DNA of 64,000 nt from an uncultured Actinomycetes bacterium (lineage in GTDB: Bacteria; Chloroflexota; Dormibacteria; Dormibacterales; Dormibacteraceae). Under the pieces are notes generated by a model. It was given only the letters and a program-made list of their open reading frames with translations. It did no database searches and was not told the origin of the DNA. The position numbers and the translations under genes were made by a program. This document shows, one piece after another, positions 3,662 to 44,659 of the stretch. Every line of letters begins with the position of its first letter. The stretch's first letter is position 1. The stretch lies in NCBI GenBank assembly GCA_964383855.1, contig CAYLIP010000004.1, positions 482 to 64,481 of the forward strand, given 5' to 3'.

Positions 3662-4408
3662 TCAGCTGGTGAAGAGGTGAGTCAGCCCGGGGGATGCCGC
3701 GAGGACCACCGCAGCCGCGAGAGCCGCGACCGCGATCACGCGCGTTACGAGCTCCCCCCGCGGCAGCAGCTTTTCGGCCGCGATCGCCACCGTGAGCACC
3801 AGCATCACGACCAGGTTCATGACGCCTGCCGCGACCAGCAGCACCATCAATGGCCAGCAGCAGCCGGCACAGTACAACCCGTGACGAATGCCCACCTTCG
3901 CGTCGCGCAGCGGGCCCCTGAAGCTGGCATACCGGAGCAGCTGTGAGAGGGGCGATCGGCAGTGCGACAGACAGAGCCGCTTGAGCGGCGTGAGCTGGTA
4001 GACCGCGAGCCCCAGCAGGACGGCAATCAGCATGAACTGGATCAGGGCGGGGTCGAGCATCAACATTGAATCGACGGCCAGGGCGAGGAAGAAGGCAGGG
4101 ACGCCGAGCAGCGTCCAGACGAGCAGGTAGCCGAGCGAGAACTGAGCCAACCGCTCGGGTCGCTGCTCGCCCATGGCCCGGGCGTAAAGCCAGGCCACCG
4201 GGGCGACAGACGGCAGCATCATGGCGGCCATCATCAGCGCCCAGGCGCCGATGAATTCCACCGGTGCCATCCCCATCGTGGCCCCCATGCCCATGCTTGC
4301 GCTCCGGCTGAGAAGGACGACGCCCACCCAGGCGCAGGCGCCGATCATCGTCGCGAACAGCACGTGGCGGTAGGACGGCGCCTTCGCCGGGTGCAGCGAT
4401 TGCGCCAT
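3662..4408 (-). CDS. integral membrane protein, DUF2182-like (predicted metal-binding)
   Basis: Met-rich hydrophobic protein (MGMGATMGMAPVEF..MMAAMMLPS) with a C-terminal CAGCCWP. Its start overlaps the stop of the upstream DUF1326-like gene (TAATG). Confidence 0.75.
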   Translation of the reverse strand: MAQSLHPAKAPSYRHVLFATMIGACAWVGVVLLSRSASMGMGATMGMAPVEFIGAWALMMAAMMLPSVAPVAWLYARAMGEQRPERLAQFSLGYLLVWTLLGVPAFFLALAVDSMLMLDPALIQFMLIAVLLGLAVYQLTPLKRLCLSHCRSPLSQLLRYASFRGPLRDAKVGIRHGLYCAGCCWPLMVLLVAAGVMNLVVMLVLTVAIAAEKLLPRGELVTRVIAVAALAAAVVLAASPGLTHLFTS

Positions 4409-5010
4409 TAATCGCTCCAGGTGAAGGGCGACGAAAAGGCAGACCCATCCTCATTGTGGAAGGTCATGCCAAAGGCTTCGATCCGGGAGCTGACGGGCTT
4501 GTCCACGGTCAGCGTGGAGCTGGAGGGATGGAAGACACCGTCCAGCCGGGTGGGGCGACCGACCCCTTCGGGGATGAAGTCCTCGACCGCGACCTCGATG
4601 CCGGAGCCGATCCGGACCGAGTGCCGACCGCCCTCTGACGCGTAATCGATAGGGGCACGCTCGATGCCGAGAACCTTCCCGACGAGCGGTGCCAGCGCTG
4701 ACATGGGTCCTCCCTTCTGGCCGGAGAAGACGCCTGCGAGCGCGTCCGCCTGCTGGCCTGAGGCTCGTTCATCGATGATCAAGCCCAGGTTCCAGTTGCC
4801 GTCCGTCATCTGCTGCGGGGTGTCGGCGACCACTGCGACCGTGAGTCCCGACACGTCGGATCCCTCGATCTCGCCGCTGTCGACGTGGTAGACCAGGACC
4901 ACCTGGCACCGCTCCTGCGTGGCCGGCATGGTCAGGCTGGTGACCGAACAGGGGCAGACCCAGCGGCAGTTGCAGTTCTCGAAGTACGTTCCCTTCAGGT
5001 TCCAGCTCAT
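4408..5010 (-). CDS. DUF1326-like protein
   Basis: The N-terminal signature MSWNLKGTYFENCNCRWVCPC is characteristic of DUF1326 by recall. Translationally coupled to the DUF2182-like gene. Confidence 0.8.
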   Translation of the reverse strand: MSWNLKGTYFENCNCRWVCPCSVTSLTMPATQERCQVVLVYHVDSGEIEGSDVSGLTVAVVADTPQQMTDGNWNLGLIIDERASGQQADALAGVFSGQKGGPMSALAPLVGKVLGIERAPIDYASEGGRHSVRIGSGIEVAVEDFIPEGVGRPTRLDGVFHPSSSTLTVDKPVSSRIEAFGMTFHNEDGSAFSSPFTWSD

Positions 5011-5850: not shown

Positions 5851-6252
5851 ATGGCAACGCGAGCTTCCGCCCCTCGGCACCGGCTTCAGGCCCGCATCGC
5901 GCGGCGCGTCAACCCGAGCGTCGTCCGGCTGGCGCCATACATTCCGTTCTACTGCGTGCTCGATCACCGCGGGCGGTCCTCCGGCCGCAGCTTCCGGACG
6001 CCGCTGGCGGCGGTCCGGCTTGCGGATGGATTCCTGCTGCCGCTCGCCTTTGGCGAAGGCGCGAACTGGGTCCAGAACCTCACCCACGCCGGTTTCGCGG
6101 AACTCGAGTGGCGCGGACAGCGCTTCAAAGTGTCGAAGCCACGGCTGCTGGCCTGGGAAGAAGCGGCACTCTCATTGAACCCGGTCCAGCGTATCTTCGC
6201 GCCCGTCTTCGGGGCGCGCACCTTTCTCCGGGTCGAAGCCGGGACGGCCTGA
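5851..6252 (+). CDS. deazaflavin (F420H2)-dependent nitroreductase-family protein (DUF385-like)
   Basis: ATG at 5851. NPSVVRLAPYIPFYCVLDHRGRSSGRSFRTPL..GEGANWVQNL resembles the small split-barrel F420-dependent family. Divergent from the TetR gene. Confidence 0.7.
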   Translation: MATRASAPRHRLQARIARRVNPSVVRLAPYIPFYCVLDHRGRSSGRSFRTPLAAVRLADGFLLPLAFGEGANWVQNLTHAGFAELEWRGQRFKVSKPRLLAWEEAALSLNPVQRIFAPVFGARTFLRVEAGTA

Positions 6253-6314
6253 TTCGGGTCGGCGCGTCCAAAGCCTGGAGTGTTGTGCGCACTCCAAGCT
6301 CCGGCTGGCCGGCC

Positions 6315-6479
6315 TCAGCCTCCGTGATCGTGAGGCTGTTTCACTGTCTGACCGACAGCGACGTACAGGCAGCCGTAGCAGACGGCGGTTTCGCAGCCTG
6401 GCTCTTCGCAGCACTCGCAGATTTCGATCGAGCGGTTGCAATGGGAGCATGAGACCGGAACGTTCGGCGTAGTCATCAT
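6315..6479 (-). CDS. 54-aa Cys-rich mini-protein (zinc-ribbon-like), absent from the ORF track
   Basis: Hand translation gives MMTTPNVPVSCSHCNRSIEICECCEEPGCETAVCYGCLYVAVGQTVKQPHDHGG. It has 8 Cys (CxxC..CxCC..C..CxxC). The ATGATGA overlap with the stop of the upstream rhodanese-CBS gene implies translational coupling. Confidence 0.5.
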   Translation of the reverse strand: MMTTPNVPVSCSHCNRSIEICECCEEPGCETAVCYGCLYVAVGQTVKQPHDHGG

Positions 6480-7165
6480 GTCGCCGCCTTCTGTGCGGCC
6501 ACCGCGTCCTCCTGTCGCAGCAGGCCGACGAGCCGTCCATCGGACGTGGTTATCGGGGAGCTGGTGAGCTGGTGCTCAGCCATGAACTGCGCCATCTCTT
6601 TGGCGGAGGCGAAGGGCCTGAAGGTGCTGGGTCCAGGGCGCATCGCCTGCTCGATCAGCTGATCCGGGTCCTTCTCGAGTTCCCTGGCCCGCAGCAGGCC
6701 GAGCACGACCCGCTCGTCGTTGACGACCACGACGGCGTCCCAACGCTGGCCTTTCACCCGGTCGCGCACATCGCCAAGCCGCTCTTTCAGACCGCAGGTC
6801 GGCGCATCCTTTCGCGCGAGGTCACCGGCTCGGGGAAGCTGCGCATTCGTCCCCTCGGTGCGCAGCCCGGCGCCCATCCAATCCACCTTGCCGTCGACGT
6901 AGTCGTAGACCCCTTCGAATCCCAAACTTTCGAGCCGCCACGCGGCTCGCGGAGACATGTCTCAAACGGCATCCCAGCAGTAGACGACGGCCGGCCGGCC
7001 GGGATCCAGCAACCGCGCCGCCTCGGACTCGATGTGGCGAAGCGGGATGTTGATCGCGCCTGGCAGATGGTCCTCCTCGTACTCATCCTTAGGAAGCACC
7101 TCGACCAGCTGAGCGCCGCCTTCGAGCAGCCGTTGAAGCTCTTCGCGATGGATTGACCTCGGCAC
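6476..7165 (-). CDS. rhodanese-domain / CBS-pair fusion protein with in-frame UGA (6962..6964); predicted selenoprotein, or a disrupted gene
   Basis: Track ORFs 6962..7165 and 6476..6958 are in the same frame, separated only by TGA-GAC. The joined reading VVYCWDAV-U-DMSPRAAWRLESLGFEGVYDYVDGKVDW restores a complete rhodanese fold. GTG start at 7165 with an AGGAGGA RBS. Confidence 0.6.
6931..6949 (-). promoter_or_regulatory. SECIS-like hairpin downstream of UGA
   Basis: On the minus strand: UGA, then 12 nt, then CGAGCCGC-GUG-GCGGCUCG (8-bp stem). Confidence 0.4.
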
Positions 7166-7412
7166 GTCTCAGTCCTCCTCTCTGCCAGAACGTCATGACT
7201 TTCAGCTTTTGCCATGGTGGCACCCCCTCCGGGGGTCATGGCGTCGATCTTGAAACCATGCCCACGCTACGCGACGGCGCAGGAACGCTCTGTCACGGCC
7301 ATCACGACCTCCCTCCGCCGGCCATGGGTTTGGACCGGTGCGTTTCAGACCGTGGCCGGCCGGACATCATCTAAGGGTGATCCCGGGTCACAGCCGCGGA
7401 TCGACACGCTCC

Positions 7413-7703
7413 ATGAACCTGCGGCACATGTCCAAATCTGAACTGCCGGAAGAAACGATCGTCGTCTACGCGACGTCCTGGTGTGGCGACTGCCGCCTCG
7501 CCAAGGCCGTGCTCGACGAGCAGCGGGCGCCCTACACCTTGATCGACATCGATCGGGAGCCGTCCGCAGTCGAGACGGTGCTGAAGCTCAACGGCGGCTA
7601 TCGAACCGTGCCAACGATAATCTTCCCCGACGGCAGGATCCTGGTCGAGCCGTCGCGCCGTGAACTCGAGGAAGCTCTGAAGGATTCCGCTTCGGCGGCC
7701 TGA
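7413..7703 (+). CDS. glutaredoxin/mycoredoxin-like thiol-disulfide oxidoreductase
   Basis: IVVYATSWCGDCRLAKAVL (CxxC) followed by TVPTIIFPDG, the thioredoxin-fold cis-Pro region. Start is ATG 7413 or 7428; the track start at 7338 is unlikely. Confidence 0.8.
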   Translation: MNLRHMSKSELPEETIVVYATSWCGDCRLAKAVLDEQRAPYTLIDIDREPSAVETVLKLNGGYRTVPTIIFPDGRILVEPSRRELEEALKDSASAA

Positions 7704-7758
7704 CGTCTGGCGGGTGAGTGGCCGAGGCCGATCGCTTCGGGCAACCGGAGGTGAAGAC

Positions 7759-8598
7759 ATGACGACGCTGAGACTGCCCAGCGGTGACGAGCTCAGTCCT
7801 GAGGATCGCGAGGTGGTCGACGGCATCGCCAGACGGCTCGGGACGCCTCCGGACGAGATGTCGATGATCTGGCAAGCGCAGCTTCACTGGCCCCAGCACC
7901 TGGAGGCCAACTACCGGCAGATGCTCTACAGCTACCGCTTCCAGGGCAGGATCCCGGCGCTGGCCAAGGAGGCCATGCACGCGGCGGTCTCCATGCACAA
8001 CCGCTGCGAGTTTTGACTGACGACGCATACGGCCGGCGTGCTCCGGCTGGGAATCGGCGAAAGGGGTGTCAGCGAGATCGTCGCCGTCGCCGAGCACGTC
8101 GCGAGCCTCTGTGCCGCCGCTGAGGCGCTGCGTCTTCCGGTCGATGTTCCCGAGGCGTCCAGGACCGCCGGCGCCGTTCGGCCGCTGGAGGCGGTCTCTC
8201 TCCAGGGCGAAGCCCGCGCCGCCATGGAGGAGATCGCGAGTTGGACTCAGGCCGGCCTGGGCACCTCTCACGTGCCTCTGATCTGGCGAAGCCTCGCCCA
8301 TCAGCCGCGGATGTTCGTCAACACCTGGCGCAAGGACCGCCTCGTCATGTCGGCGGGGCGGCTGGAACCCGGAATAAAGGCGTGCATCGCCTTCGCGGTG
8401 GCCGCCGCCAGGCAGAGCCCGTACATGATCGCGTACACCACTTCGCAGGTGAAGAGGTCGCTCGACCTCGAGGACGGCGCCCTGGTGGAGCTGGTTGCCG
8501 CGGTGATGCACTACGTCTCCTTCAACACGATCTCGCATGCGATGCTGCTGGAGCCGAGCCACACCGAGATGCGTGCGGCTGACTTCACCCAGGACTGA
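7759..8598 (+). CDS. two-domain AhpD/carboxymuconolactone-decarboxylase-like protein with in-frame UGA (8014..8016); predicted CxxU selenoprotein
   Basis: ATG at 7759 follows a GGAGGTG RBS. Track ORFs 7714..8016 and 8038..8598 share one frame. The joined reading AVSMHNRCEF-U-LTTHTAGVLRLGIGERGVSEIVAV matches the CMD-family C-x-x-C-x3-H motif, with U at the second Cys. Confidence 0.65.
8030..8049 (+). promoter_or_regulatory. SECIS-like hairpin downstream of UGA
   Basis: UGA, then 13 nt, then CGGCCGG-CGUGCU-CCGGCUG (7-bp stem including one G-U pair). Confidence 0.4.
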
Positions 8599-8720
8599 AG
8601 CGCGCCACTCCCGCAAGGGTCGGCTGTCCCAAGCCCGGGACACGCACGAGTCACACTTCAGGCACTGATACGTCGCAGGAGCCGGCGAAAGATCCAAACC
8701 CCGTTGTGAGGTCAGCTGAA

Positions 8721-9128
8721 ATGCGCGAGAGATACACCGCCCCGTACGTCAACTTCCAGGGTCGCGCGCGAGAGGCGATGGAGTTCTATCACCGGGCCCT
8801 GGGAGGCGACCTTCAGCTCGTCGCCCAGGACGAGAACGGCCAGCCCCGGCCGGCCGGCCCCGGCGATCGCATCATGCACGCGCGCCTCGAGTCTGACGGC
8901 ATCCTGATAGTCGGCTCGGACGGCCATCCCCAGTTCCCGGCGAGGGTGGGCGAGAACCTGGCCATCGTTCTCGGCGGCAGTGACCGGGAAGGGCTGGCCA
9001 GGGCATTCGAGGCCTTGAGCGAGGGTGGCCAGGTCAAGATGCCACTGACGAAGACGCCGTGGGGCGAGGCGGCCTGGTTCGCGGACCGATTCGGCATCAA
9101 CTGGAACGTGGACATCGACGCCGGTTAG
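8721..9128 (+). CDS. VOC/PhnB-like (glyoxalase-fold) protein
   Basis: YVNFQGRAREAMEFYHRALGG..MHARLE..PWGEAAWFADRFGINW. ATG at 8721 follows a GAGG RBS; an alternative GTG lies at 8706. Confidence 0.8.
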   Translation: MRERYTAPYVNFQGRAREAMEFYHRALGGDLQLVAQDENGQPRPAGPGDRIMHARLESDGILIVGSDGHPQFPARVGENLAIVLGGSDREGLARAFEALSEGGQVKMPLTKTPWGEAAWFADRFGINWNVDIDAG

Positions 9129-12280: not shown

Positions 12281-14065
12281 TCAGTCACGCCGGCCGCTTC
12301 TCAGCCGCTCGTAACCGGGTCCCCGGTCGATCAAAGGCCGCGGCGAGCGACCCTCGCGCCGCAGCCCGGCGATCGCGCCCTCCCGGACGATCACGCCGTA
12401 GTCGCGCTCCGCCGCCGCCTCCGAGACCAGTCCGCGGAGCACGTCCTGGAGCACCAGCTCGGGCTCCCGCTCGAAGGGGTTCCCCCAGCCGCCGCCGCCG
12501 GTCGTGCGCAGGCGCAGCAGGGTCCCGGCGGGGAGGGCCACATCGTCGTTCATCCCCGGCAGCACCTCGCCGTCGACGCTCGCCTGGTAGGGCAGGCCGG
12601 CCATACCGCCGGCCACGCCGTAGGGGCCGAGCTCGCACCGATCGGCCGTGGAGACGAAGGCCGCGTCGCGGAGCAGCCGGATGTGCTTGTCGTAGCCGAG
12701 ACCGCCCCGCCGCCGGCCGGGGCCGCCAGAGTCGGTGGCCAGCGCCAGCTTCTCGATCAGGACCGGAAACCGGGTCTCGGCAAACTCCGCGGGCAGGTTC
12801 TTCGAGTCGGGCACGATGTGAATCGCGTCCGAGCCGTCGGCGTAGAAGCGACCACCTGAGCCTCCGCCGAGGACCTCGCGAAGCAGGTACCAGCCGCCGC
12901 CGGCGTCGGTGCCGTGGATGCCCCAGTAGCGGATCGTCTCCTGATCGGCCGGCATCCGCCCGCCCACGGCCTGGGCCAGGCAGCCGGCGAAGACGCCGAG
13001 CAGCCGCAGGATGAGGAAGGAGCGGGCGTTGGTGGGCGCCGGGAAGACGGGCGTCACGAGCGTCCCCTTGGGCGGAAACCGCAGCTCGAGGATGTCGCAG
13101 ATGCCCTCGTTGATGTCGAGCTGGGCGGCGCGCTCGGGCGACCCGGCCAGGTTGCGGAGGATGCAGGCCATCCACTTGCGCAGGAAGAGGCCGTCGGCAT
13201 AGTCGCCGGCGTGGTTGATGGGGCCGCGGGCCTGCGGCCCGGTGCCGGTGAGGTCGCAGACGATGCGGTCGGCCGTCTTGGTCATGGTCAGCCTGAGCAC
13301 GTGCAGGCGCTGATCGGTGACGCCGTCCTGCTCGATGTAGTCCTCGAACTCGTAGACGCCATCGGGAATGCGGGGCAGGATCTCGGTCCGAAAAGTGGCG
13401 GCGCAGCGCTCGATGAGCGCGTCAAAGCAGGCCTCCACGGTCTCGGTCCCGTACGTCTCGAAGAGGCGCTGGAGGCGCCGGGCGCCCATCTGGCACGCGG
13501 CCACCTCGCTGTCGAGATCGCCCGCGAAGGATTCGGGGGTCCGCGAGTTGCGCACGATCACGCGATAGAGGTCCTCGTTGCGCCGGCCCGCGTCGAAGAG
13601 CTTGACCGGAGGCACCATCAGCCCCTCCTGGAAGGCGCTGGTGGCGTGGGCGGGCATCGATCCCGGGACCATGCCGCCGATGTCGTCGTGGTGGCCGAAG
13701 GCCTGCACGAAAGCGACCACCTCGCCCTCGTGGAAGACCGGCACCGTGGTCGTCAGGTCGGGCAGGTGGCCGACCGATCCCTCCGAGAGATAGACGTCGT
13801 TGTGGTAGTACACGTCGCCCTCGCGCATGGCCATGGGCGGAAAGTCGCGGACCACCGGCTGCACCATGGCCGAGTAGGAGCGCCCGGTCAGCTTGCGGCA
13901 GCGACGGTCATGGATTCCGGCCCGGTAGTCGTGCTGGTCGCGGATCATGGGCGAGCGCGCGGTGCGCTCGATCGCCGCCTCGACCTCGGCCTCGACCGAC
14001 CGCAGGGTGCCGTCAACGACCTCGAGCACGATCGGGTCGACCGCGGCGCGGCTAGCGGTGCTCAA
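12281..14065 (-). CDS. hyuB: hydantoinase B / oxoprolinase-family subunit
   Basis: 594 aa. The N-terminus DPIVLEVVDGTLRSVEAEVEAAIERTARSPMIRDQHDYRAG is typical of HyuB. Overlaps the HyuA stop by 14 nt. Confidence 0.9.
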   Translation of the reverse strand: MSTASRAAVDPIVLEVVDGTLRSVEAEVEAAIERTARSPMIRDQHDYRAGIHDRRCRKLTGRSYSAMVQPVVRDFPPMAMREGDVYYHNDVYLSEGSVGHLPDLTTTVPVFHEGEVVAFVQAFGHHDDIGGMVPGSMPAHATSAFQEGLMVPPVKLFDAGRRNEDLYRVIVRNSRTPESFAGDLDSEVAACQMGARRLQRLFETYGTETVEACFDALIERCAATFRTEILPRIPDGVYEFEDYIEQDGVTDQRLHVLRLTMTKTADRIVCDLTGTGPQARGPINHAGDYADGLFLRKWMACILRNLAGSPERAAQLDINEGICDILELRFPPKGTLVTPVFPAPTNARSFLILRLLGVFAGCLAQAVGGRMPADQETIRYWGIHGTDAGGGWYLLREVLGGGSGGRFYADGSDAIHIVPDSKNLPAEFAETRFPVLIEKLALATDSGGPGRRRGGLGYDKHIRLLRDAAFVSTADRCELGPYGVAGGMAGLPYQASVDGEVLPGMNDDVALPAGTLLRLRTTGGGGWGNPFEREPELVLQDVLRGLVSEAAAERDYGVIVREGAIAGLRREGRSPRPLIDRGPGYERLRSGRRD

Positions 14066-16040
14066 GCACCAGGTTCCCCAGGCCGTCGACGCGGAAGTCG
14101 AAGCCGGCCTCGATCACGGTCGTCGAGCCGTACTCCTCGACGATCGCCGGTCCCTCCGCGCCGAACCCGACCGGGAGATCGTCGCGGCGGTAGACCACAA
14201 AGCCCGCCCGCTTCCCGGTCGGCCGCCCGCTCCCGGCAGGCGGCGCCAGCTCCAGCGGCGGGCGGTCGATCAGGCCGATGCCCGTGACCTTCCAGTTCAC
14301 GAACTCGACGACCTGCCGGTCGCGGTAGGCGTAGCCGTAGGAGCGCTCGTGAAGGTCGTGGAAGCCGGCGGCGGCGAGCGCCGGATCGAAGGCGGAGCCC
14401 ACGTCGACCGACAGCTCGTGCGCCTCGCCCAGATAGCGCGCGTCGACCGACCGGCGCAGCCGCATGCGCTCCTCGGGGATGCCCTGCCGTTGCAGCGACT
14501 CACGAGCCAGCTCCTCGAGGCTTGCGAAGGCGGCGGCCACGGCGCCGGCGTCGACCGCGTCGTGGCGCTGAACCCGGGTCAGGACGTACTCGTCCTTGAA
14601 GTCGACTGCGAGCAGTCCAAACGCGGAAACGTTGCCCGGGTTGGGCGGGATCATGACGCTCCGCAGCCCCAGCAGCTGGGCGATCCGGGCAGCCTGCAGC
14701 GGGCCGGCGCCACCGAAGGCGACAAGGGTGTCTCCGGCCGGGTCGATGCCGCGCTTGACGGTCAGCTGGAGCACGGCGTTGGCCTGGTTGTGCGCGGAGA
14801 TCTCGAGGATGCCCTCGGCGGTCCGCTCCGGCGTCAGGCCGAGGGAACCGGCCAGGCGCCGGATGCCCTCGGCGGCCAGCTCGGACCGGAGTGACACCGC
14901 CCCGCCCGCCAGGCGCTCGGGCAGCCGCCCCAGGACGAGCTGAGCGTCGGTCACGGTCGGCTGCTCGCCGCCCCGCCCGTAGGCCATCGGTCCCGGGAAG
15001 GCGCCCGCGCTCCGGGGACCGACGCGCAGCCCGCCCTCGGGGCTCAACCAGGCGATCGAGCCGCCGCCGGTCCCCACCGAGACGATGTCGATCATCGGGA
15101 CCCGCACCGGGAATTCGCCGATGTGGCCCTCGCGGGTCAGCTGGGGCTCGGCCGCCTCGACCAGGCAGACGTCGGTCGAGGTGCCGCCGGTGTCAATCGT
15201 GATCACGCGCTCGAAGCCGGCCTGGCGGGCCAGCCAGGAGGCTCCCAGCGCCCCCGCGGCCGGCCCGGAGAGCGCCGTCGCGATCGGGCGCCGCGCCACC
15301 GCGGCCGCCGGCAGCACGCCACCGTTCGACTTCATGATCAGGAGCGGCGCGCCCGGCGTCAGTTCCTCGAGCTGCGCCGCGGCCCGTTCCAGGTACCCGT
15401 TCACATGCGGCTTGACGAAGGCGTCGACCAGGGTCGTCATCGCCCGCTCGTACTCCCTGTACTCGGGCCACACCTCGCTCGAGATCGAGACGACCGCCCC
15501 CGGATGCTCCTCGAGCAGGAGCTCGCGCATCCGCACCTCGTGGGCGGGGTTGGCGTACGAGTGCAGGAAGCAGATCCCCACCGCCGTGACGCCGTCTTCC
15601 CGGAGACGCCGGCCGGCGGCGCGCGCCTCCGCCTCGTCGAGCGGCGTCAGCACCTCGCCGGTGTAGAGCAGCCTCTCGGTCACCTCGAAGACGCGCTCAA
15701 GGGGCACGATCCGCTCGGGCTTGACCCAGAAGTAGGAGTTGCCGTATCCGCTGGGAACGCTCTGCCGGGCGATCTCGAGCACGTGCCGGAATCCCCTCGT
15801 GGTGACCAGCGCCAGCGACTGAAAGCGGTGCTCGAGCATCGCGTTGGTGGCGACCGTCGTCCCGTGGGCGACCGCTCCCACGCGGCGCCCGGAGGCGATC
15901 TCGCGCAGGCCGTCGACCAGCGCCCGGGCGGGGTCGGAAGGGGTGCTGGGAACCTTCAGCTGCACCGCCTTACCCGACTCCTCGAGGAGCACCAGGTCGG
16001 TGAAGGTCCCCCCCGTGTCTATTCCGACCCGAACCGGCAC
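14052..16040 (-). CDS. hyuA: hydantoinase A / oxoprolinase-family subunit
   Basis: VRVGIDTGGTFTDLV begins at GTG 16040, just after the upstream response regulator stop at 16051. The track start at 16166 would overlap that gene. Confidence 0.9.
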   Translation of the reverse strand: MPVRVGIDTGGTFTDLVLLEESGKAVQLKVPSTPSDPARALVDGLREIASGRRVGAVAHGTTVATNAMLEHRFQSLALVTTRGFRHVLEIARQSVPSGYGNSYFWVKPERIVPLERVFEVTERLLYTGEVLTPLDEAEARAAGRRLREDGVTAVGICFLHSYANPAHEVRMRELLLEEHPGAVVSISSEVWPEYREYERAMTTLVDAFVKPHVNGYLERAAAQLEELTPGAPLLIMKSNGGVLPAAAVARRPIATALSGPAAGALGASWLARQAGFERVITIDTGGTSTDVCLVEAAEPQLTREGHIGEFPVRVPMIDIVSVGTGGGSIAWLSPEGGLRVGPRSAGAFPGPMAYGRGGEQPTVTDAQLVLGRLPERLAGGAVSLRSELAAEGIRRLAGSLGLTPERTAEGILEISAHNQANAVLQLTVKRGIDPAGDTLVAFGGAGPLQAARIAQLLGLRSVMIPPNPGNVSAFGLLAVDFKDEYVLTRVQRHDAVDAGAVAAAFASLEELARESLQRQGIPEERMRLRRSVDARYLGEAHELSVDVGSAFDPALAAAGFHDLHERSYGYAYRDRQVVEFVNWKVTGIGLIDRPPLELAPPAGSGRPTGKRAGFVVYRRDDLPVGFGAEGPAIVEEYGSTTVIEAGFDFRVDGLGNLVLEHR

Positions 16041-16050
16041 ACGCCGATTA

Positions 16051-16656
16051 TCAGGCCCGGCGGCGGACCCGCCGGCGGCGCTCCGGGCGCCCGGCGGCGT
16101 CCCGGTTGACGATCTCGGCGACCTGCGCCCGGAGGGTCGCCATATCGGGCGCCGCAAAGGGCGCAATCCCCCGGGCCGCCAGCAGAGCCGCCGCGCCCAG
16201 CGGCAGCTCCGAGACCGCCAAGCTGGTGGTCGCCCGCAGCATCTGGAGAACGTCGTCCAGCCTGCGCGGCTGCCGGCGGCGATCGGCCGGACGGCCGACC
16301 GCGTTCTCGATCAGCGAGACCAGCTGGGCCGGCGTCGTCCGGCTCTTCACGATGAACGGGGCCCCGAGCCTGAGCACATCCTCCCGCAGCTCGGGGAGCT
16401 CGCTGTTGGAGACGACAAGCGCGGGCAGCGCCGCGGTCGTCGAACTGGCCCGGATGTGCCTCAGCACCTCGGCTCCGCTGAGCCCGGGCAGCGAGAGGTC
16501 GAGGATCACGGCCGCGTGAGCCTCCTCCCCGACCAGGGCGACGCCCGCATCCCCGCTGGACGCGATGTCGACCTGCCAGCCGGCGTTGCGCAGGGCGAGC
16601 GCGTACATGCCGGCGATGCTGGCATCGTCTTCGACCAGGAGCAGCCGTGAGGGCAC
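16051..16656 (-). CDS. response regulator receiver protein with uncharacterised C-terminal extension
   Basis: RLLLVEDDASIAGMY..AVILDLSLPGLSG..VVSN..K matches a receiver (REC) domain. No recognisable output domain follows. Confidence 0.8.
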   Translation of the reverse strand: MPSRLLLVEDDASIAGMYALALRNAGWQVDIASSGDAGVALVGEEAHAAVILDLSLPGLSGAEVLRHIRASSTTAALPALVVSNSELPELREDVLRLGAPFIVKSRTTPAQLVSLIENAVGRPADRRRQPRRLDDVLQMLRATTSLAVSELPLGAAALLAARGIAPFAAPDMATLRAQVAEIVNRDAAGRPERRRRVRRRA

Positions 16657-23581: not shown

Positions 23582-24513
23582 CACCTCTTCCTCCTCGTGC
23601 CCGCACCGTCGCCGCCGCCGTCGCCGTCGCCGCCTTCGCCCCCGCCCCGCGGCCGGCCCGCCGCCGGCGCCGGCTCCCTGGCCGGCTCGACCGGCACCGT
23701 CTCGGTCATGGCCGGCGGCGACCCTCCGCGGCGGCGAAGGGCTATCAAGCCGCCGACCACGGCCAGCACCGCCGTCACGACCGCGCCCAGGTAGCCGGGA
23801 ATGTTGTTGCGGCTGGGCAGCACCGCATTGGCGGCGCTGGGCAGCTTGTATGTCTCCGGCTCGTCCATGAGCAGGAAGAAAGAGTTGAGGCCGCCGTAGA
23901 CGCTGGTGTCGCGCCCGTAGAGCTGCGCCTTCTTGAAGCCCTGTCCCTGGAGCAGAGCCAGCCGGGCGTCGGCCGCCTTGTGGAGATCGGCGAGCGTGCC
24001 GAACTGGATCGACTGCGTGGGGCAGGCCTTGGCGCAGGCGGGCATGAGGTTGTTCTGGAGCCGGTCGTAGCAGAGCGTGCACTTGTGCGCGGTCCCGGTC
24101 GTCGAACTGAAGCCGATCACCGAGTACGGGCAGGCGGAGATGCAGTCGCGGCAGCCGTTGCAGACCGGCTGCTGGATGAAAACGGTGTCGAACTCGGTCC
24201 GGATGATGGCACCGGTCGGGCAGACCTCCATGCAGGAGGCGTGCTGGCAGTGCTTGCAGACGTCGGACATCATGAGGAACGCCTGGCCGCCCGCCGCCGT
24301 CGGCTGCTTGATCTCGCCGCCGGCGGGAACGGTCTCGATGAACCGGACATGGCGCCAGTTCTGAGCGTCGAGCTGGCCCGTGTTGTCGAAGGAGTCGAGC
24401 AGCAGGTTGGGCTCATTGCCCTCGAGCTGGTTCCACTCCTTGCAGGCCACCTCGCACGCCTTGCATCCGATGCAGACGGAGGTGTCGGTGAAGAACCCGA
24501 CCGGCTCGGCCAC
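23581..24513 (-). CDS. fdnH: formate dehydrogenase iron-sulfur (beta) subunit with C-terminal TM anchor and Gly/Asp-rich tail
   Basis: Several ferredoxin Cys clusters are present (CIGCKACEVACKEWN, CKHCQHASCMEVCP, CNGCRDCISACP, CTLC..CAKACP). Confidence 0.9.
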   Translation of the reverse strand: MAEPVGFFTDTSVCIGCKACEVACKEWNQLEGNEPNLLLDSFDNTGQLDAQNWRHVRFIETVPAGGEIKQPTAAGGQAFLMMSDVCKHCQHASCMEVCPTGAIIRTEFDTVFIQQPVCNGCRDCISACPYSVIGFSSTTGTAHKCTLCYDRLQNNLMPACAKACPTQSIQFGTLADLHKAADARLALLQGQGFKKAQLYGRDTSVYGGLNSFFLLMDEPETYKLPSAANAVLPSRNNIPGYLGAVVTAVLAVVGGLIALRRRGGSPPAMTETVPVEPAREPAPAAGRPRGGGEGGDGDGGGDGAGTRRKR

Positions 24514-24529
24514 TCTGCTGCTTACCTCC

Positions 24530-25321
24530 TCAAAACCCCATCAGGTTGGGCGTGATCTTGGCCAGCCCGCGGTCGCGCGCGTAGAGGTCGAGGGGGATGG
24601 CCGCCAGCTCGTCAACCACGGGAACCGCCCGTCCGTCCTTGGCGCAGTCGACGGTGACCAGGTACCGGCGGCAGGACGCGCAGGCGTCGACGCGCAGGCT
24701 CGGAAAGACGTCGTGGTCGGCGTAGACGGGGAGATTCCGGCTCTCCGATTCACCGCAGCCGGCGCAGACCATGCGCGCGACCGGCCAGGCCCGCGCGCAG
24801 CGCGAGCACTCGAGCATGCGCTGGCCGGTCAGCAGCGCCTCGCCGCCGGCCGTGAAGACGGAGACCTGGGGCGGCGCGCCGCACTCAGGGCAGTGCAGCC
24901 GATCCGGCGCTTGAGGACGCGGCATGACGCCGGGCAGCGCCTCCAGCACCGGCGCGCACGAGGCTCGCGCGAGATACCGCGCGGCCGGCTCCTGCTCGGC
25001 CCCGGTCAGCCAACCGCCGATCGCATCCTGCACGCCGCCCGCATAGACCAGCGCCTGGAGGGCGGTCACCAGCGTCTCCGGACCCACCGCCGCGGTGACG
25101 GTGACCACGGCGGGCGCCACCGCCTCGGCCACCCAGCGGGGCAGCTCGTCGAAGCCGGGGCCGGCCTCGGTGGCGGCGGTGCCCGCCCGCTCCTGCACAT
25201 CCAGCAGCGATGCGTAGAGGCGCAGCATCTCGCCGGCGTGAGGGTAGCGTTCGGCCAGCTCGCGGGCGCGCGTCCTGCGCGCCTGGTAGGTCGCGATCGG
25301 GGTCCCCAGTGCGGTGCTCAC
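24530..25321 (-). CDS. fdhE: formate dehydrogenase accessory protein FdhE
   Basis: Paired CxxC motifs (CPECG, CSRC, CAGCG, CASCRRYL) in the FdhE-like order. Located between the fdnG and fdnH genes. Confidence 0.8.
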   Translation of the reverse strand: MSTALGTPIATYQARRTRARELAERYPHAGEMLRLYASLLDVQERAGTAATEAGPGFDELPRWVAEAVAPAVVTVTAAVGPETLVTALQALVYAGGVQDAIGGWLTGAEQEPAARYLARASCAPVLEALPGVMPRPQAPDRLHCPECGAPPQVSVFTAGGEALLTGQRMLECSRCARAWPVARMVCAGCGESESRNLPVYADHDVFPSLRVDACASCRRYLVTVDCAKDGRAVPVVDELAAIPLDLYARDRGLAKITPNLMGF

Positions 25322-28300
25322 AGCTTCTTGATGTTGACGAGGAACGACTTGAACTCGGGGGTGCGCGAGTTGGCGTCGCCCACGAACGGGGTGAGGGCGT
25401 TGGCAAGCCAGTTCTTCGAGCGGTCGGGGTTCTGCTCGGCCGATACGCCGACGAAGCCCCAGTGGATGGGGATCCCGATGTGATAGACCTTCTTGCCGCC
25501 GACCGTGAGCGGCCCCAGTCGCTTGGTCACAAGCGCGGCCACCGTCAGCTTGCCGCGGGGGTTGAACACCTCGACCGCGTCACCGTTGGCGATGCCAAGC
25601 TTGGCGGCCAGCTCCTCGGGCACCTCGACGAAGGCCTGGGGCTGCAGGCCGACCAGCAGCGGCACGTGCTGCGTCACGTAGTGCTCGTGCTCCGTCAGGC
25701 GGTAGCTGGTGGCGATGTACGGGTAGTCCTTGGCGGTGCCGAACCGGCTCTTACGGCCCGCCTGCTGGTCGTACAGGAAGGCCACCGGGGACTCGCTCTG
25801 GCCGGGATGGAGCGGGTTCGGGATCGGCGACTCGATGGGCTCGTAGTGCTCGGGAAAGGGCCCGTCGTTGAGCGAGTTGCTGAAGAGCCGGCCCACCCCC
25901 TCGCCGTTCATGATGAAAGGCAGCCAGGCGACCGGATCCTGGGTGATCGGCTTCATGGTGGGCGGGTAGTCGGGCACGTCGCCCACCCACTTGGAGCCGT
26001 CCCACTGGATGCCGGCGCGCTTGGGGTCCCAGGGCTTGCCGTCCAGGTCGGCGGAGGCGCGGTTGTAGAGGATCCGCCGGTTGAGCGGCCACGTCCAGCC
26101 CCACTGGTGGTAGAAGCCAAGGCCGGTCGGATCGTTCTTGGCCGGGTCCTGGATGCCGTCGCGGCGCTTCATGAGGTTGCCGGCGTCGGGATAGGAGCCG
26201 GTGTAGATCCAGTCGCCGGCGGTGGTGGAGCCGTCGTCCTTCAGGTTGGCGAAGGTCGTCAGCTGCTTGCCGGTCGTGAGGTCCTGGCCATTGATCTCGC
26301 GGGCGAGCTCGTCCAGGTCGGGCTTGACCGGGTCCTTGTAATTGAAGGTCAGCGCCTTGATCGGGTCGGGAAACTTGCCGCCTGACTGGTAGAGCTTGCG
26401 CACCCGCTGAAAGAGATCGGCCAGGATCCAGTGGTCGTGCCGCGATTCACCCTCGGGCGGGATCACGGCGTCCTTCCACTGGCCCATCCGCCCGCTGTTG
26501 ACGAAGGAGCCCTCCTTCTCGATCCAGTGCGTCGCGGGCAGCATGAAGACCTCGGTCTGGATGTTCTTGGGGTCGAGGCCGGGCGCATGCCAGAACTCGC
26601 TGGACGTCGTCTTGAGCGGGTCCATCACGACCAGCCACTTGAGGTTGGACAGCGCTTGCAGGACCTGGTTGGAGTCGGGACCGATGCTGGTCGCCGTCAT
26701 CCCGCTCAGGATCACCCCCTGCATCTTTCCCTTCAGCGCCTGGTCGTAGATCGAGATCCAGCTCGAGTTGGCCGCCGGCTTGGGGATGTAGGAGTACGCG
26801 AAGTCGTTGTCCTTGGTCGCGGCATCGCCGTACCAGGTCTTCAGCAGCGAGACCAGGAACTTCTTGTAGTTGAGACCGAAAAAGTTCCAGGAGTTGGGGT
26901 CGCTCTTCTTGGGCGGCGCTTTGTCGTTGTACTGGGCGACCGTCTGCCATGCGGGATCGGGGATCTTGAGATAGCCGGGAAGGATCTCCCAGGAGATGGC
27001 GTTGTCCGTGTTGCCCTGGATGTTGGCGTGTCCGCGCTCGGCGTTCATGCCGCCGCCGGGCATGCCCATGTTGCCCAGCAGCAGCTGGAGGACGGCGCCG
27101 CTGCGGATCAGCTGGACGCCGGTGGTGTGGTGCGTCAGGCCGACCGCGTAGACGATCGTCATCACCTTGTCCGGCTTCCCCATCTCGCCGACCAGCCTGG
27201 CGACCTCCAGGAACTGGTCCTTAGGTATGCCGGTGACCTGCTCCACCATCTCCGGCGTGTAGCGCGAGTAGTGCTTCTTCATGAGCTGGAAGACGGTCTG
27301 CGGGTCCTGCAGCGTCATGTCGCGGGCGGCGTAGCTGTCGCTGCCGGTGGTCTGCGGTCCCTGGCCCTGCCCCAACCCTGCGTTCTGGTCGTTCTGGCTG
27401 GGCGGCGTGGCGTTCTGGTACGCCCAGGTCGAGATGTCGTAGCTGCGCTTGGCCTTGTCGTAGCCGCTGAACAGCCCGTCCGTGAAGCCGAAGCCCTCCT
27501 TAACCAGGAAGGAGGCGTTGGTGTAGTGCTTGACGTACTCGGCCTGGTGGAGGTTGTTCGAGAGCACGTAGTTGATCAGTCCGCCGAAGTAGGCGACGTC
27601 GCTACCCGTGCGAATGCGCAGGTAGATGTCGGCCATCGCCGAAGTCCGCGTGAAGCGCGGGTCGGCGTGGACGATCCGGGCACCGCCGCCGCTGCCCGGA
27701 CCCCGCTTGGGATCGAGCTTGGCCTTGACGAACCACTGGAACCCGACCGGGTGCGCCTCCGCCGGGTTGGCGCCGTTGATCAGGATCAGGTCGGCGTTCT
27801 TGATGTCGCGCCAGTGGTTGGTCATGGCGCCTCTCCCGAACGTGGCCGCCAAACTGACGACCGTCGGGCCGTGTCAAACGCGGGCCTGTTGCTCTATGTG
27901 CACCACGCCAAGGCCACGCATGACCTTGGCGGCGAAGTAGCCCTCCTCGCTGCTGAAGGCGGCCCCGCCGGCGAAGGCGATGCCCTCGGTCCGGTTGACC
28001 GTGTTGCCGGCCGCATCCTGGGCGACGAACGTCGCGTCCCGCGAAGCCTTGATGTTCTGCGCGATCTTGTCGAGCACGAAGTCCCAGGACTTCTCCTGCC
28101 AGGCGGAGCTGCCGGGAGCCCGGTAGAGCGGCTTCTGAACGCGGCGGGCGGACACGGCCAGCTGCATGGAGCTGGCGCCCTTGGGACACAGCCGGCCCTC
28201 GTTGACCGGGCTGTTGGGGTCGCCTTCGATCTGCAGGAGCTCGGTCTTGCCGCCGGCGCCGGTCCGCGTGTAGGCGACCAGCGAGCAGCCCACCGCGCAG

Positions 28301-28458
28301 TAGGGGCAGACGCTGTGCGATTCCCTGGCGTCGGCGATCCGCAGGCCCTGGCTCACGGTGCGTGCCTGAGCGAGATCAAAGCCGAGCCCGGCCACGCCCA
28401 GGGCGGCGGTGGAGGCTGCTCCAATCTTGATGAAGTCACGCCTGGAGACGTGAGTCAT
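25318..28458 (-). CDS. fdnG: formate dehydrogenase-N-type catalytic (alpha) subunit, selenocysteine-containing (UGA at 27874..27876), Tat-exported
   Basis: Track ORFs 27874..28458 and 25318..27852 are in one frame (3141 nt). The junction IEQQARV-U-HGPTVVSLAATFGRGAMTNHW matches the E. coli FdnG Sec site (ARVUHGPTV). Also has the twin-arginine signal SRRDFIK and a CPYCAVGC FeS motif. Confidence 0.9.
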
Positions 28459-29396: not shown

Positions 29397-29402
29397 GCTC
29401 CG

Positions 29403-29819
29403 ATGCTCCCAGTCGTGGTCGAGCTGCCGGGTGAGTTCGAGTCGGCCGGGGAGTGGCTGGCCGACGCCCAGGCCATGGAGTCAGCGGGCGCCGCGGCCCT
29501 GCTCGTCAAGGCCGGGTCACTCGATCGCCAGGCCCTGCTCGCCGCGCTGGCCGCCTCGACCCTTCGCGTGACCATCGCCGCCGCTGATGCTTCCCCGACC
29601 GTTCGGCTCCTGGGCCGCGGACGCGTCGTCGCCGAGGACGACGGGTGGCGACGCCTTCCCGAGCCCGAGAGCCGGGCTCACTGGCGCGAACTGCACGCGG
29701 AGGCCGAGGCCGGCGGCGCAACCGGCGTCGTCGCAGCCTTCAGCCCGCGGCTGCTCGACCTCCTCCGCAACGACGACGTGGAGGAGGATCGCTCCGACCT
29801 CCGGCTCGCGCAGGGCTGA
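29403..29819 (+). CDS. hypothetical protein
   Basis: 138 aa with strong GC3 bias and no recognised family. It starts only 6 nt from the divergent fdhD track start, so one of the two starts is probably wrong. Confidence 0.45.
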   Translation: MLPVVVELPGEFESAGEWLADAQAMESAGAAALLVKAGSLDRQALLAALAASTLRVTIAAADASPTVRLLGRGRVVAEDDGWRRLPEPESRAHWRELHAEAEAGGATGVVAAFSPRLLDLLRNDDVEEDRSDLRLAQG

Positions 29820-30189: not shown

Positions 30190-30225
30190 CGAGCCGGTCA
30201 GCGGGCGGGGCTATCCTCGGCGCAA

Positions 30226-41962: not shown

Positions 41963-41983
41963 CCGCCGCCGAGGCGGAGGCCG

Positions 41984-42643: not shown

Positions 42644-42645
42644 TC

Positions 42646-42678: not shown

Positions 42679-42683
42679 AAGAC

Positions 42684-43361: not shown

Positions 43362-44659
<1,298 letters not shown>

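What the first reader, a model, noticed from the sequence alone, without database searches (positions are those of the whole stretch)
6315..8598. Divergent thiol/selenol redox island: Cys-rich mini-protein, Sec-rhodanese-CBS, glutaredoxin-like protein, Sec-AhpD-like protein
Minus-strand unit: the rhodanese-CBS gene (candidate Sec) is translationally coupled, through an ATGATGA overlap, to a 54-aa protein with 8 Cys. Plus-strand unit, across a 247-nt divergent region: a CxxC glutaredoxin/mycoredoxin-like protein, followed by the CxxU AhpD-like protein.

Four small redox-active proteins in a head-to-head arrangement, two of them predicted selenoproteins, suggests one functional module. Possible roles are persulfide/selenide trafficking or peroxide/disulfide stress defence, with the CBS pair acting as a ligand sensor. 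I do not recognise this combination as a described system.
Basis: inference. Interest (0 to 1): 0.7.

Follow-up and report, generated by a model that had tools for sequence, protein, structure and literature searches.

The report
Two unrelated selenoprotein units, head-to-head
The four genes and both selenocysteine readings are real, but only the rhodanese-CBS selenoprotein and its tiny cysteine-rich partner form a cassette conserved across many soil bacteria; the glutaredoxin-like and AhpD-like genes sit next to it in this organism only.

Summary

- **Rhodanese-CBS:** 79 of 80 related genomes keep TGA at this codon. Full-length homologs carry Cys there. The hairpin downstream has frozen synonymous sites only in the TGA forms.
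- **AhpD-like gene:** 79 of 79 relatives keep TGA in the CxxU motif, and the hairpin shows compensatory base changes.
- **Sec use in this genome:** the window also encodes a canonical formate dehydrogenase selenoprotein.

None of 80 rhodanese-CBS loci has a glutaredoxin or AhpD-like gene within 6 kb. The conserved unit is a two-gene cassette:

- a Sec-rhodanese-CBS protein with a Cys63-x4-Sec68 active-site loop;
- a translationally coupled protein of about 54 aa with seven conserved Cys and a C-terminal PHxHGG.

The small partner is present in 64 of 80 Sec-form loci and in 0 of 9 Cys-form loci. It matches no Pfam, NCBIfam or PDB entry.

The AhpD-like protein belongs to a different, almost always Sec-containing family. 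Elsewhere that family sits among other redox and organometallic-type genes.

Both selenoproteins are new variants of known kinds. The partner protein and the cassette were not found described. Biochemical function is inferred only.

The parts
6315..6479 (-). Gene for a 54-aa Cys-rich mini-protein. Conserved pattern: CxxC-x6-CxxC-x4-C-x4-CxxC...PHxHGG-stop.
   Evidence: ORF. Homologous ORF immediately downstream of rhodanese-CBS in 64/80 loci. 104 stand-alone representatives of 47-69 aa in an exhaustive search. Invariant C11 C14 C21 C24 C34; over 90% C29 C37 H50 H52 G53 G54. AF2 pLDDT 82.
6476..7165 (-). Rhodanese-CBS selenoprotein gene (229 codons, GTG start with GGAGGA upstream; stop overlaps the mini-protein start in ATGA).
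   Evidence: AF2 model of the Cys homolog has pLDDT 94.8.
6875..7144 (-). Rhodanese domain (residues 8-97) with active-site loop C63-W-D-A-V-U68-D.
   Evidence: PF00581, 53 bits. In the model: strand 59-62, loop 63-69, helix 70-80. C63 in 80/80 and U68 in 79/80 loci. PDB 3nhv (BH2092) has the same YCWGPAC loop.
6962..6964 (-). In-frame UGA read as selenocysteine (residue 68).
   Evidence: TGA in 79/80 related genomes, CGA in one. Cys (TGC/TGT) in full-length homologs.
6931..6949 (-). SECIS-like hairpin CGAGCCGC-GUG-GCGGCUCG, starting 13 nt (12 intervening bases) after the UGA.
   Evidence: Fold (z -2.5 for the 40-nt context). Nucleotide-level conservation. Synonymous sites frozen in TGA forms but not in Cys forms.
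6494..6814 (-). CBS domain pair (approximately residues 118-224).
   Evidence: PF00571, 43 bits, 2 stretches. Structural neighbours are nucleotide-bound CBS pairs: AcuB, CBSX2, MgtE.
7166..7414 (.). 249-nt divergent intergenic region between the two units.
   Evidence: No sigma-70-like promoter or Rfam element found.
7415..7703 (+). Glutaredoxin/mycoredoxin-like gene (96 aa, WCGDC).
   Evidence: PF00462, 50.5 bits. TIGR02200 79.1 bits, below cutoff 89.5. Called as a 96-aa gene in public assemblies.
7759..8598 (+). AhpD/CMD-like selenoprotein gene (279 codons, tandem CMD-like halves; first half carries C83-E-F-U86-x3-H).
8014..8016 (+). In-frame UGA read as selenocysteine (residue 86; the CxxU of the AhpD motif).
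   Evidence: TGA in 79/79 relatives. Aligns with the second Cys of CRHC in the single full-length Cys homolog P0159.
8030..8049 (+). SECIS-like hairpin C-GGCCGG-CGUGCU-CCGGCU-G, starting 14 nt (13 intervening bases) after the UGA.
   Evidence: Fold. 92.7% of cells paired over 61 distinct sequences, 3 pairs with compensatory changes, covariation score reached by 0/500 shuffles.

Best explanation
The region holds two independent selenoprotein units that lie head-to-head only in this organism.

**Unit 1 (minus strand)** is a widely conserved bicistronic cassette.
- The first gene encodes a cytoplasmic rhodanese-CBS selenoprotein. Its canonical catalytic Cys63 is followed at loop position +5 by Sec68. 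Ordinary rhodaneses have Arg, Thr or Ser at that position.
- The second gene encodes a translationally coupled ~54-aa protein with seven conserved Cys and two conserved His, ending in PHxHGG. It looks like a zinc finger.

*Shown:* gene structure, Sec recoding with a SECIS hairpin, conservation of the pair, and the position of Sec in the active-site loop.

*Inferred:*
- Cys63 accepts sulfane sulfur or is oxidised.
- The neighbouring selenolate resolves this as a Se-S (or S-S-Se) bridge.
- Sulfur or redox equivalents are then exchanged with the thiolates of the 1:1 co-translated mini-protein.
- The CBS pair gates activity through an adenosine-type ligand.

**Unit 2 (plus strand)** is a mycoredoxin-like CxxC protein followed by a tandem-CMD AhpD-like selenoprotein with CxxU-x3-H.

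*Inferred:* it acts as a hydroperoxide/disulfide reductase whose selenenylsulfide is recycled by the Grx-like protein.

The two units share a chemical theme and dependence on Sec. They are not a co-inherited module.
For: **Sec in the rhodanese gene**
- TGA at the same codon in 79/80 species-level genomes, with conserved coding sequence on both sides.
- Cys at that column in full-length homologs.
- More than 80 database homologs are called as 159-160-aa fragments starting just after the TGA.
- Hairpin codons are frozen in TGA forms: GCC 76/77, GCG 77/77, CGG 76/77, CTC 77/77. In Cys forms they are relaxed: 5/9, 6/9, 7/9, 7/9.

**Sec in the AhpD-like gene**
- 79/79 TGA.
- The Cys homolog has CRHC at that motif.
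- The hairpin shows covariation.

**The genome decodes Sec**
- A Tat-signal formate dehydrogenase with ...QQARV-U-HGPTV lies at 27876..27874, next to FdhD.
- TGA is also the commonest ordinary stop codon in the window, 30/46.

**Cassette**
- Mini-protein adjacent in 64/80 loci.
- 43 of the mini-protein ORFs recovered start with the same 4-nt overlap.
- Nothing else is conserved around the pair.

**Independence of the two units:**

**Active-site geometry:** AF2 pLDDT 94.8, with strand 59-62, loop 63-69 and helix 70-80. HMM alignment places C63 on the catalytic Cys of CAGRTRS in 1yt8.
Against: - No Sec machinery (selA/B/D, tRNA-Sec) is in the 64-kb window. The trait is therefore inferred from the three UGA genes.
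- No Rfam SECIS family matches.
- Single-sequence folding of the AhpD hairpin is not better than shuffles (z -0.4).
- All biochemical steps are inference. No ligand, metal or substrate is known.
- 16/80 Sec-form loci lack the mini-protein, so it is not obligatory.
- One metagenomic contig (L093) carries both units 2 kb apart. A loose association therefore cannot be fully excluded.
Confidence: 0.75

Rival explanations
1. One reading: all four genes form one thiol/selenol redox module, co-regulated from the shared divergent region, for example for persulfide/selenide trafficking or peroxide defence.
For: Head-to-head arrangement with a 249-nt spacer. The same arrangement occurs in at least 6 contigs of the same organism. 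All four proteins are thiol/selenol proteins. One contig (L093) has the rhodanese-CBS/mini pair and an AhpD-like gene within 3.7 kb. Selenoprotein genes are known to cluster (PMC13188914).
Against: 0/80 rhodanese-CBS loci have a Grx or AhpD-like gene within about 6 kb. Only 1/79 AhpD-like loci has a rhodanese-CBS gene. Elsewhere the AhpD-like gene keeps quite different neighbours. No shared promoter or operator was detected.
Confidence: 0.07
2. The UGAs are genuine stops, so the rhodanese and CBS parts (and the two AhpD parts) are separate small genes or pseudogene fragments.
For: Public gene callers split both genes, into 67+160 aa and 85+186 aa. TGA is the main stop codon in the window.
Against: The same in-frame TGA is kept in 79/80 and 79/79 relatives, with protein-level conservation across it. 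Cys-containing full-length homologs exist. Hairpins are conserved at the expected distance. AF2 folds the read-through Cys homolog as one compact protein with pTM 0.85.
Confidence: 0.02
3. The cassette is a sensor-output pair rather than an enzyme-substrate pair. Rhodanese-CBS senses sulfane sulfur or oxidant together with adenylate status. It then switches the zinc-finger mini-protein, which acts on another partner (a protein or nucleic acid).
For: The weak best fold matches of the mini-protein are all cross-braced interaction fingers: ZZ, PHD, RING. CBS pairs are regulatory modules. By established knowledge, zinc-thiolate sites are classic redox switches (RsrA, Hsp33).
Against: Fold matches are not significant (E > 0.7). 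No DNA-binding or sigma-factor gene is conserved nearby. The mini-protein is absent from Cys-form loci, which a generic regulator would not predict.
Confidence: 0.12
4. The mini-protein is a sulfur or selenium carrier that is loaded on its invariant C-terminal Gly-Gly (thio- or selenocarboxylate) by the Sec-rhodanese. This would be analogous to Urm1/MoaD/ThiS with the rhodanese domains of Uba4/MOCS3/MoeZ.
For: The protein ends exactly at ...PHxHGG in most members: H50, H52, G53 and G54 are each over 90% conserved, and matches run to the last residue. It is obligatorily next to a rhodanese. By established knowledge, Gly-Gly-COOH carriers are thiocarboxylated via rhodanese persulfides.
Against: The model shows no beta-grasp fold. 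No E1-like adenylating enzyme is conserved nearby. A Dormibacterota subgroup lacks the HGG tail. The two His may simply complete the second zinc site.
Confidence: 0.07

Closest known systems
Rhodanese-like selenoproteins catalogued as forms 1-5 (PMC13188914: UxxS, UxxG, CxU/NF041203, UxxG, and TsoB NF045694 with UxxxxU)
   Same: Rhodanese fold with Sec in or near the active-site loop. TsoB has the same x4 spacing between its two redox residues. Form 1 is listed as UxxS, and the sequence here also reads U-D-M-S.
   Different: The protein scores far below the curated models: NF041203 12.7 vs 115 bits, NF045694 20.8 vs 805 bits. It is fused to a CBS pair and paired with a Cys-rich mini-protein. 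Neither feature appears in the review's table. I could not check whether form 1 shares the same Sec position.
BH2092 rhodanese of Bacillus halodurans (PDB 3nhv/3o3w; structural-genomics entry, function unknown)
   Same: Best structural and sequence match of the rhodanese half: 29% identity, rmsd 1.6 A. It has the same YCW-x3-C loop with Cys at +5.
   Different: It has Cys rather than Sec, no CBS pair and no known partner.
Nucleotide-sensing CBS-pair proteins (AcuB, plant CBSX1/2, MgtE cytosolic domain)
   Same: The C-terminal half superposes on AMP/ADP/ATP-bound CBS pairs. By established knowledge, CBSX proteins regulate thioredoxins, which is a precedent for CBS control of thiol redox enzymes.
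   Different: No solved structure combines rhodanese and CBS; every match covers only half of the model (TMq 0.48 or less). Ligand unknown. The usual G-h-h-S/T-x-x-D ribose motif reads GLLRxxE/D here.
AhpD-like / CMD-like CxxU selenoproteins (TIGR01926, PF02627, NF041238, NF041047; TIGR04169 arsenosugar-associated peroxidase-like protein)
   Same: CMD fold, CxxU-x3-H motif, and Sec replacing the second Cys.
   Different: Below all specific cutoffs: TIGR04169 36.7 vs 120, TIGR01926 27.2 vs 81.8, NF041238 23.5 vs 175. It is a tandem two-CMD architecture, and nearly every member found uses Sec. Only one Cys homolog appeared among the 120 best-scoring (listed) proteins of 229.
Multi-selenoprotein operons (SAO and Tso systems, PMC13188914)
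   Same: Several selenoprotein genes are juxtaposed. In other genomes the AhpD-like family sits beside DVU_1556-type methyltransferase, TrsS-like radical SAM, DsbD/CcdA and ResA-like genes.
   Different: None of those partners is in this window. The two selenoprotein genes here are divergent and are not co-inherited.
Gly-Gly-COOH sulfur carriers with rhodanese loaders (Urm1-Uba4, MOCS2A-MOCS3, CysO/MoaD-MoeZ)
   Same: A small protein ending in (H)GG is encoded next to a rhodanese.
   Different: The mini-protein model is a zinc-finger-like Cys cluster rather than a beta-grasp fold, and no adenylating E1 domain is linked. This is a resemblance only.

Membership tests
Bacterial selenoprotein (Sec-UGA recoding): rhodanese-CBS gene | In-frame UGA aligned with Cys in homologs, with conserved coding sequence on both sides | tested here: met
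   79/80 TGA; Cys in full-length homologs.
Bacterial selenoprotein (Sec-UGA recoding): rhodanese-CBS gene | SECIS stem-loop shortly downstream of UGA with G/U in the apical loop, under RNA-level constraint | tested here: met
   8-bp hairpin with GUG loop, starting 13 nt after the UGA. Synonymous sites frozen only in TGA forms. No compensatory changes, because the stem hardly varies.
Bacterial selenoprotein (Sec-UGA recoding): AhpD-like gene | UGA aligned with Cys, plus a SECIS hairpin supported by covariation | tested here: met
   79/79 TGA; 3 pairs with compensatory changes; 0/500 shuffles reach the covariation score.
Bacterial selenoprotein (either gene) | Genome encodes selA, selB, selD and tRNA-Sec | not testable with these tools
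   None is in the window, and the rest of the genome is not available. Indirect support comes from the canonical FdhA-U gene in the window.
Bacterial selenoprotein (either gene) | Selenium incorporated in the protein | not testable with these tools
   Needs 75Se labelling or mass spectrometry.
Rhodanese (PF00581) | Domain score above the gathering threshold, and catalytic Cys at the end of the central strand heading the active-site loop | tested here: met
   53.1 vs 22.2 bits. C63 is invariant. Loop 63-69 lies between strand 59-62 and helix 70-80.
Curated rhodanese selenoprotein families (NF041203 LYCAU; NF045694 TsoB) | Score at or above the curated cutoff | tested here: not met
   12.7 vs 115 bits and 20.8 vs 805 bits.
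CBS pair (PF00571) | Two tandem CBS motifs above threshold | tested here: met
   43.4 vs 24 bits, 2 stretches. Fold matches to CBS pairs at E about 1e-9.
AhpD/CMD family (PF02627) | Domain above threshold and a CxxC(U)-x3-H active-site motif | tested here: met
   40.3 vs 23 bits. Motif C-E-F-U-L-T-T-H.
Specific AhpD-type (seleno)protein families (TIGR04169, TIGR01926, NF041238) | Score at or above the curated cutoff | tested here: not met
   36.7 vs 120, 27.2 vs 81.8 and 23.5 vs 175 bits.
Mycoredoxin (TIGR02200) | Score at or above the curated cutoff | tested here: not met
   79.1 vs 89.5 bits. The general Glutaredoxin domain PF00462 is met at 50.5 vs 22.9 bits.
Gly-Gly sulfur-carrier proteins (ThiS/MoaD/Urm1 type), considered for the mini-protein | C-terminal Gly-Gly | tested here: met
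   G53 and G54 are over 90% conserved and terminal.
Gly-Gly sulfur-carrier proteins (ThiS/MoaD/Urm1 type), considered for the mini-protein | Beta-grasp fold and a linked E1-like adenylating enzyme | tested here: not met
   The AF2 model has two short strand pairs plus one helix and no beta-grasp fold. No conserved neighbour exists beyond the rhodanese-CBS gene.
Conserved gene cluster ('redox island' of four genes) | Co-localisation of the four genes in related genomes | tested here: not met
   0/80. 1/79 in a different arrangement.

The most novel reading that the evidence does not exclude
The Sec-rhodanese-CBS protein and its mini-protein form a new selenium-dependent two-protein system. In it, a non-beta-grasp zinc-finger protein is charged on its invariant C-terminal His-Gly-Gly, or on its Cys cluster, with sulfur or selenium by a Cys-x4-Sec rhodanese loop under nucleotide control. 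That would be a new type of S/Se carrier, widespread in soil Actinomycetota and Dormibacterota. The exclusive association of the partner with the Sec form (64/80 vs 0/9) would then reflect chemistry that only the selenol can do.
Probability: 0.08. Interest if true: 0.85.

Novelty: new variant of a known kind. Interest (0 to 1): 0.5.

Why it matters
- **Mis-annotation.** Gene callers cut two widespread soil-bacterial selenoprotein families into fragments. Each is split into two ORFs in every assembly examined, and neither is covered by a curated NCBIfam model. Selenoproteomes of Actinomycetota and Dormibacterota are therefore undercounted.
- **A testable partner.** The rhodanese-CBS cassette supplies a concrete candidate partner for a Sec-containing rhodanese. 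It also provides natural Sec/Cys/Arg variants at one active-site position, which suits a dissection of what selenium adds to rhodanese chemistry.
- **A caution.** Adjacent selenoprotein genes need not form a functional module.

Tried and rejected
- **Rfam:** gathering thresholds over the whole window, and E-value mode over 6850-8120, gave no SECIS or other relevant family.
- **Promoter/terminator scan of 6200-8750:** nothing above shuffled expectation.
- **Word-indexed homolog search with the mini-protein:** found only itself. The exhaustive phmmer search was needed instead.
- **Profile search of the mini-protein against PDB sequences, and Foldseek of its model:** no significant hit. There was only zinc-knuckle and PHD/ZZ-like resemblance at E > 0.2.
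- **Cluster look-up to name the source organism:** no names or accessions were returned.
- **Pfam scan of 20 large ORF segments (19 loci) in the window for selA/selB/selD:** none found.
- **MFE comparison of the rhodanese hairpin between Sec and Cys forms:** not significant (p = 0.37). The codon-level test was informative instead.
- **Correlation between conserved Cys124 and presence of the mini-protein:** none.
- **Literature searches** for rhodanese+CBS selenoproteins, TsoB, and Dormibacterota+selenocysteine found nothing specific.
- **Global UGA reassignment:** rejected, because TGA is the main stop codon in the window.
Full report
**What is in the sequence**

The four ORFs are as described.

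- Minus strand: a 229-codon gene (GTG 7165, preceded by GGAGGA) runs to 6476. It carries an in-frame TGA at 6964..6962.
- Pfam finds a rhodanese domain (residues 8-97, 53 bits) and a CBS pair (43 bits) in this gene.
- Its stop overlaps, in ATGA, the start of a 54-aa ORF (6479..6315) with eight Cys.
- Plus strand, 249 nt away: a 96-aa glutaredoxin-fold protein with WCGDC (7415-7703). It scores 79 bits against mycoredoxin TIGR02200, just under the cutoff of 89.5.
- Then a 279-codon AhpD/CMD-like gene (7759-8598), with TGA at 8014-8016 in the motif C-E-F-U-LTTH.
- Public assemblies of the same organism call both UGA genes as two fragments, 67+160 aa and 85+186 aa.

**Sec in the rhodanese-CBS gene**

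- A protein search returned many full-length homologs (225-240 aa). It also returned more than 80 clusters of 159-160 aa that begin exactly after the TGA.
- In the alignment, the full-length proteins have Cys at the UGA column: YCWDxxCD[LM]SPRAAWRLE.
- A scan of one genome per species found 551 relatives. In the best 80 loci the codon is TGA in 79 and CGA (Arg) in one. Protein-level conservation continues on both sides.
- Starting 13 nt (12 intervening bases) after the UGA lies an 8-bp hairpin with a GUG loop, CGAGCCGC-GUG-GCGGCUCG.
- The stem barely varies, so covariation cannot be scored. Its four fourfold-degenerate codons are nonetheless frozen in 77 distinct TGA forms: GCC 76/77, GCG 77/77, CGG 76/77, CTC 77/77.
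- The same codons drift in nine Cys-form genes: 5/9, 6/9, 7/9, 7/9. This is the signature of an RNA constraint tied to the UGA.

**Sec in the AhpD-like gene**

- Of 229 homologs, nearly all of the 120 best-scoring (listed) ones are C-terminal fragments of 174-216 aa. The single full-length one (P0159) has CRHC where the window has CEFU.
- In 79 of 79 metagenomic relatives the codon is TGA.
- The downstream hairpin (8030-8049) is paired in 92.7% of cells over 61 distinct sequences.
- Compensatory changes occur at three pairs. One is the C-G to G-C swap seen in this window. The covariation score was reached by none of 500 shuffles, and the slid controls are far lower.

**The organism decodes Sec**

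- Seventeen kilobases away, the window encodes a Tat-signal molybdopterin formate dehydrogenase. It has the canonical ...IEQQARV-U-HGPTV motif (TGA 27876..27874) and lies next to FdhD.
- TGA is also the commonest ordinary stop codon in the window, 30 of 46. A global reassignment is therefore excluded.
- No sel genes or tRNA-Sec lie in the window.

**The island test**

- Of the 80 rhodanese-CBS loci (up to 6 kb of flank), none contains a Grx or AhpD-like gene.
- Clustering all flanking ORFs found no family in more than 8 of 81 loci. Those 8 are close relatives of one another.
- Among 79 AhpD-like loci, only L093 also has the rhodanese-CBS/mini pair. There it lies on the same strand, 2 kb away.
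- A Grx lies directly upstream of the AhpD-like gene in 1 of 48 distinct loci, and within 1.5 kb in 3 of 27.
- The four-gene arrangement is therefore private to this organism.

**The real module**

- An HMM of the mini-protein finds it immediately downstream of rhodanese-CBS in 64 of 80 Sec-form loci, and nowhere else in those loci.
- In 43 of the mini-protein ORFs recovered, the start overlaps the stop by the same 4 nt.
- The family pattern is CxxC-x6-CxxC-x4-C-x4-CxxC, then about 12 residues, then PHxHGG-stop.
- An exhaustive search of 1.8 billion representatives found 104 members. Nearly all are stand-alone proteins of 47-69 aa, with the match running to the last residue. There are no informative fusions.
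- Pfam, NCBIfam and PDB sequence profiles give nothing.
- The AF2 model is confident in the Cys core (pLDDT above 90 for residues 10-40) and floppy in the tail.
- Its non-significant best fold matches are all two-zinc cross-brace fingers.
- None of nine distinct Cys-form loci has the mini-protein. Fisher p = 3e-6, uncorrected for phylogeny.
- The 16 Sec-form loci lacking it are scattered over the tree, which implies repeated loss.

**Anatomy of the enzyme**

- The AF2 model of a 70%-identical Cys homolog is very confident (pLDDT 94.8, pTM 0.85).
- It shows the canonical rhodanese active site: strand 59-62 ending in Cys63, loop 63-69, and helix 70-80.
- Sec68 is thus at loop position +5. HMM alignment to 1yt8 puts Cys63 on the catalytic Cys of CAGRTRS, and Sec68 on the loop Arg.
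- The natural TGA-to-CGA variant (L063) and P0005 restore that canonical Arg.
- Cys63 is invariant, and a third Cys (124) is present in 67/80.
- The nearest structures are BH2092 (same YCW-x3-C loop) for the N-terminal half, and AMP/ADP/ATP-bound CBS pairs (AcuB, CBSX2, MgtE) for the C-terminal half. No solved structure has both halves.

**How it probably works (inference)**

- Cys63 is the usual persulfide-carrying or oxidisable nucleophile.
- A selenolate five residues on, in the same cradle, would attack it to give a Se-S or S-S-Se bridge. This would turn a transferase loop into a fast redox or relay centre.
- The co-translated mini-protein, with its seven thiolates, is the obvious acceptor or reductant. 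The CBS pair would couple this to adenylate or SAM status.
- For unit 2, the CxxU-x3-H centre of an AhpD fold suggests hydroperoxide or disulfide reduction, with the adjacent Grx-like protein as recycler.
- None of these steps has been tested.

**Context of the AhpD-like family elsewhere**

- Its neighbours in other loci are: a DVU_1556-type methyltransferase (14 loci), a glutathione/mercuric-reductase-like flavoprotein (14), a DsbD/CcdA-like membrane protein (11), a ResA/TlpA-like thioredoxin (10), a TrsS-like radical SAM protein (9) and a peroxiredoxin (8).
- These are the kinds of genes found in the selenoprotein-rich SAO/Tso-type clusters reviewed in PMC13188914.
- In three close relatives, a PrdB/GrdB-like gene split by TGA (LLVPA-U-PVCH) sits between the Grx and the AhpD-like gene.

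**Comparison and novelty**

- Sec-rhodaneses and CxxU AhpD-like proteins are known kinds. The 2026 review lists five rhodanese forms and several AhpD/CMD forms.
- Neither protein here reaches any curated NCBIfam (seleno)protein model.
- Neither the CBS fusion nor the mini-protein partner appears in the review's table or in full-text searches.
- One caveat: form 1 is listed as UxxS, which the sequence here (U-D-M-S) also satisfies. I could not retrieve that sequence to compare positions.
- I therefore rate this as new variants of known kinds, with an apparently undescribed partner protein. The "island" itself is a chance juxtaposition.

Noticed in passing
window 25318-28458 (-), TGA at 27874-27876; FdhD at 28509-29480 (-): A Tat-signal formate dehydrogenase alpha-like molybdoenzyme with in-frame UGA in the canonical QQARV-U-HGPTV motif, next to an FdhD/NarQ gene. 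This is a third selenoprotein gene in the window, and gene callers would split it.
   Followed up: partly
L081-L160 (AhpD-like loci), e.g. L081:2150-2983, L101:8460-10247, L129:1296-2045, L096:8694-9389, L117:6201-7376: In other genomes the AhpD-like selenoprotein sits beside a DVU_1556-family methyltransferase, a TrsS-like radical SAM protein, a DsbD/CcdA-like membrane protein, a ResA/TlpA-like thioredoxin and a GR/MerA-like flavoprotein. This context resembles the SAO/Tso selenoprotein clusters, and none of it is present in this window.
   Followed up: partly
L088:~1140-2125 and L092:3971-~4950: A PrdB/GrdB-family gene split by an in-frame TGA (motif LLVPA-U-PVCH, i.e. UxxC) lies between the Grx-like and AhpD-like genes in three close relatives. 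It is probably another selenoprotein.
   Followed up: partly
L063 (codon aligned to window 6962-6964); protein P0005: Natural variants have Arg (CGA) in place of Sec/Cys at loop position +5, which restores the canonical rhodanese C-x4-R loop. L063 still keeps the mini-protein.
   Followed up: no
L093:1240-4907: This is the only other contig where the rhodanese-CBS/mini pair (1240-2084) and an AhpD-like selenoprotein gene (4095-4907) are close. They lie on the same strand, 2 kb apart, with unrelated ORFs between them.
   Followed up: partly
L002, L006, L007, L019, L033, L038 (Dormibacterota loci), mini-protein C-termini: A subgroup of mini-proteins replaces the PHxHGG tail with a basic, Ser/Thr/Pro-rich tail (...LDRLRxxP...) while keeping all seven Cys.
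   Followed up: no
window 24071-25483 (+): Two same-frame high-GC3 ORF segments are separated by a single TGA (24362-24364). Neither half has a Pfam match, and the first half has shadow-like codon statistics, so this is probably not a selenoprotein.
   Followed up: partly
window 40415-44659 (+): Two Nramp-family transporter genes lie in tandem. Several histidine kinases (30190-31695, 36428-37987, 47500-48846) and a hydantoinase A/B pair (12281-16310) are also in the window.
   Followed up: no
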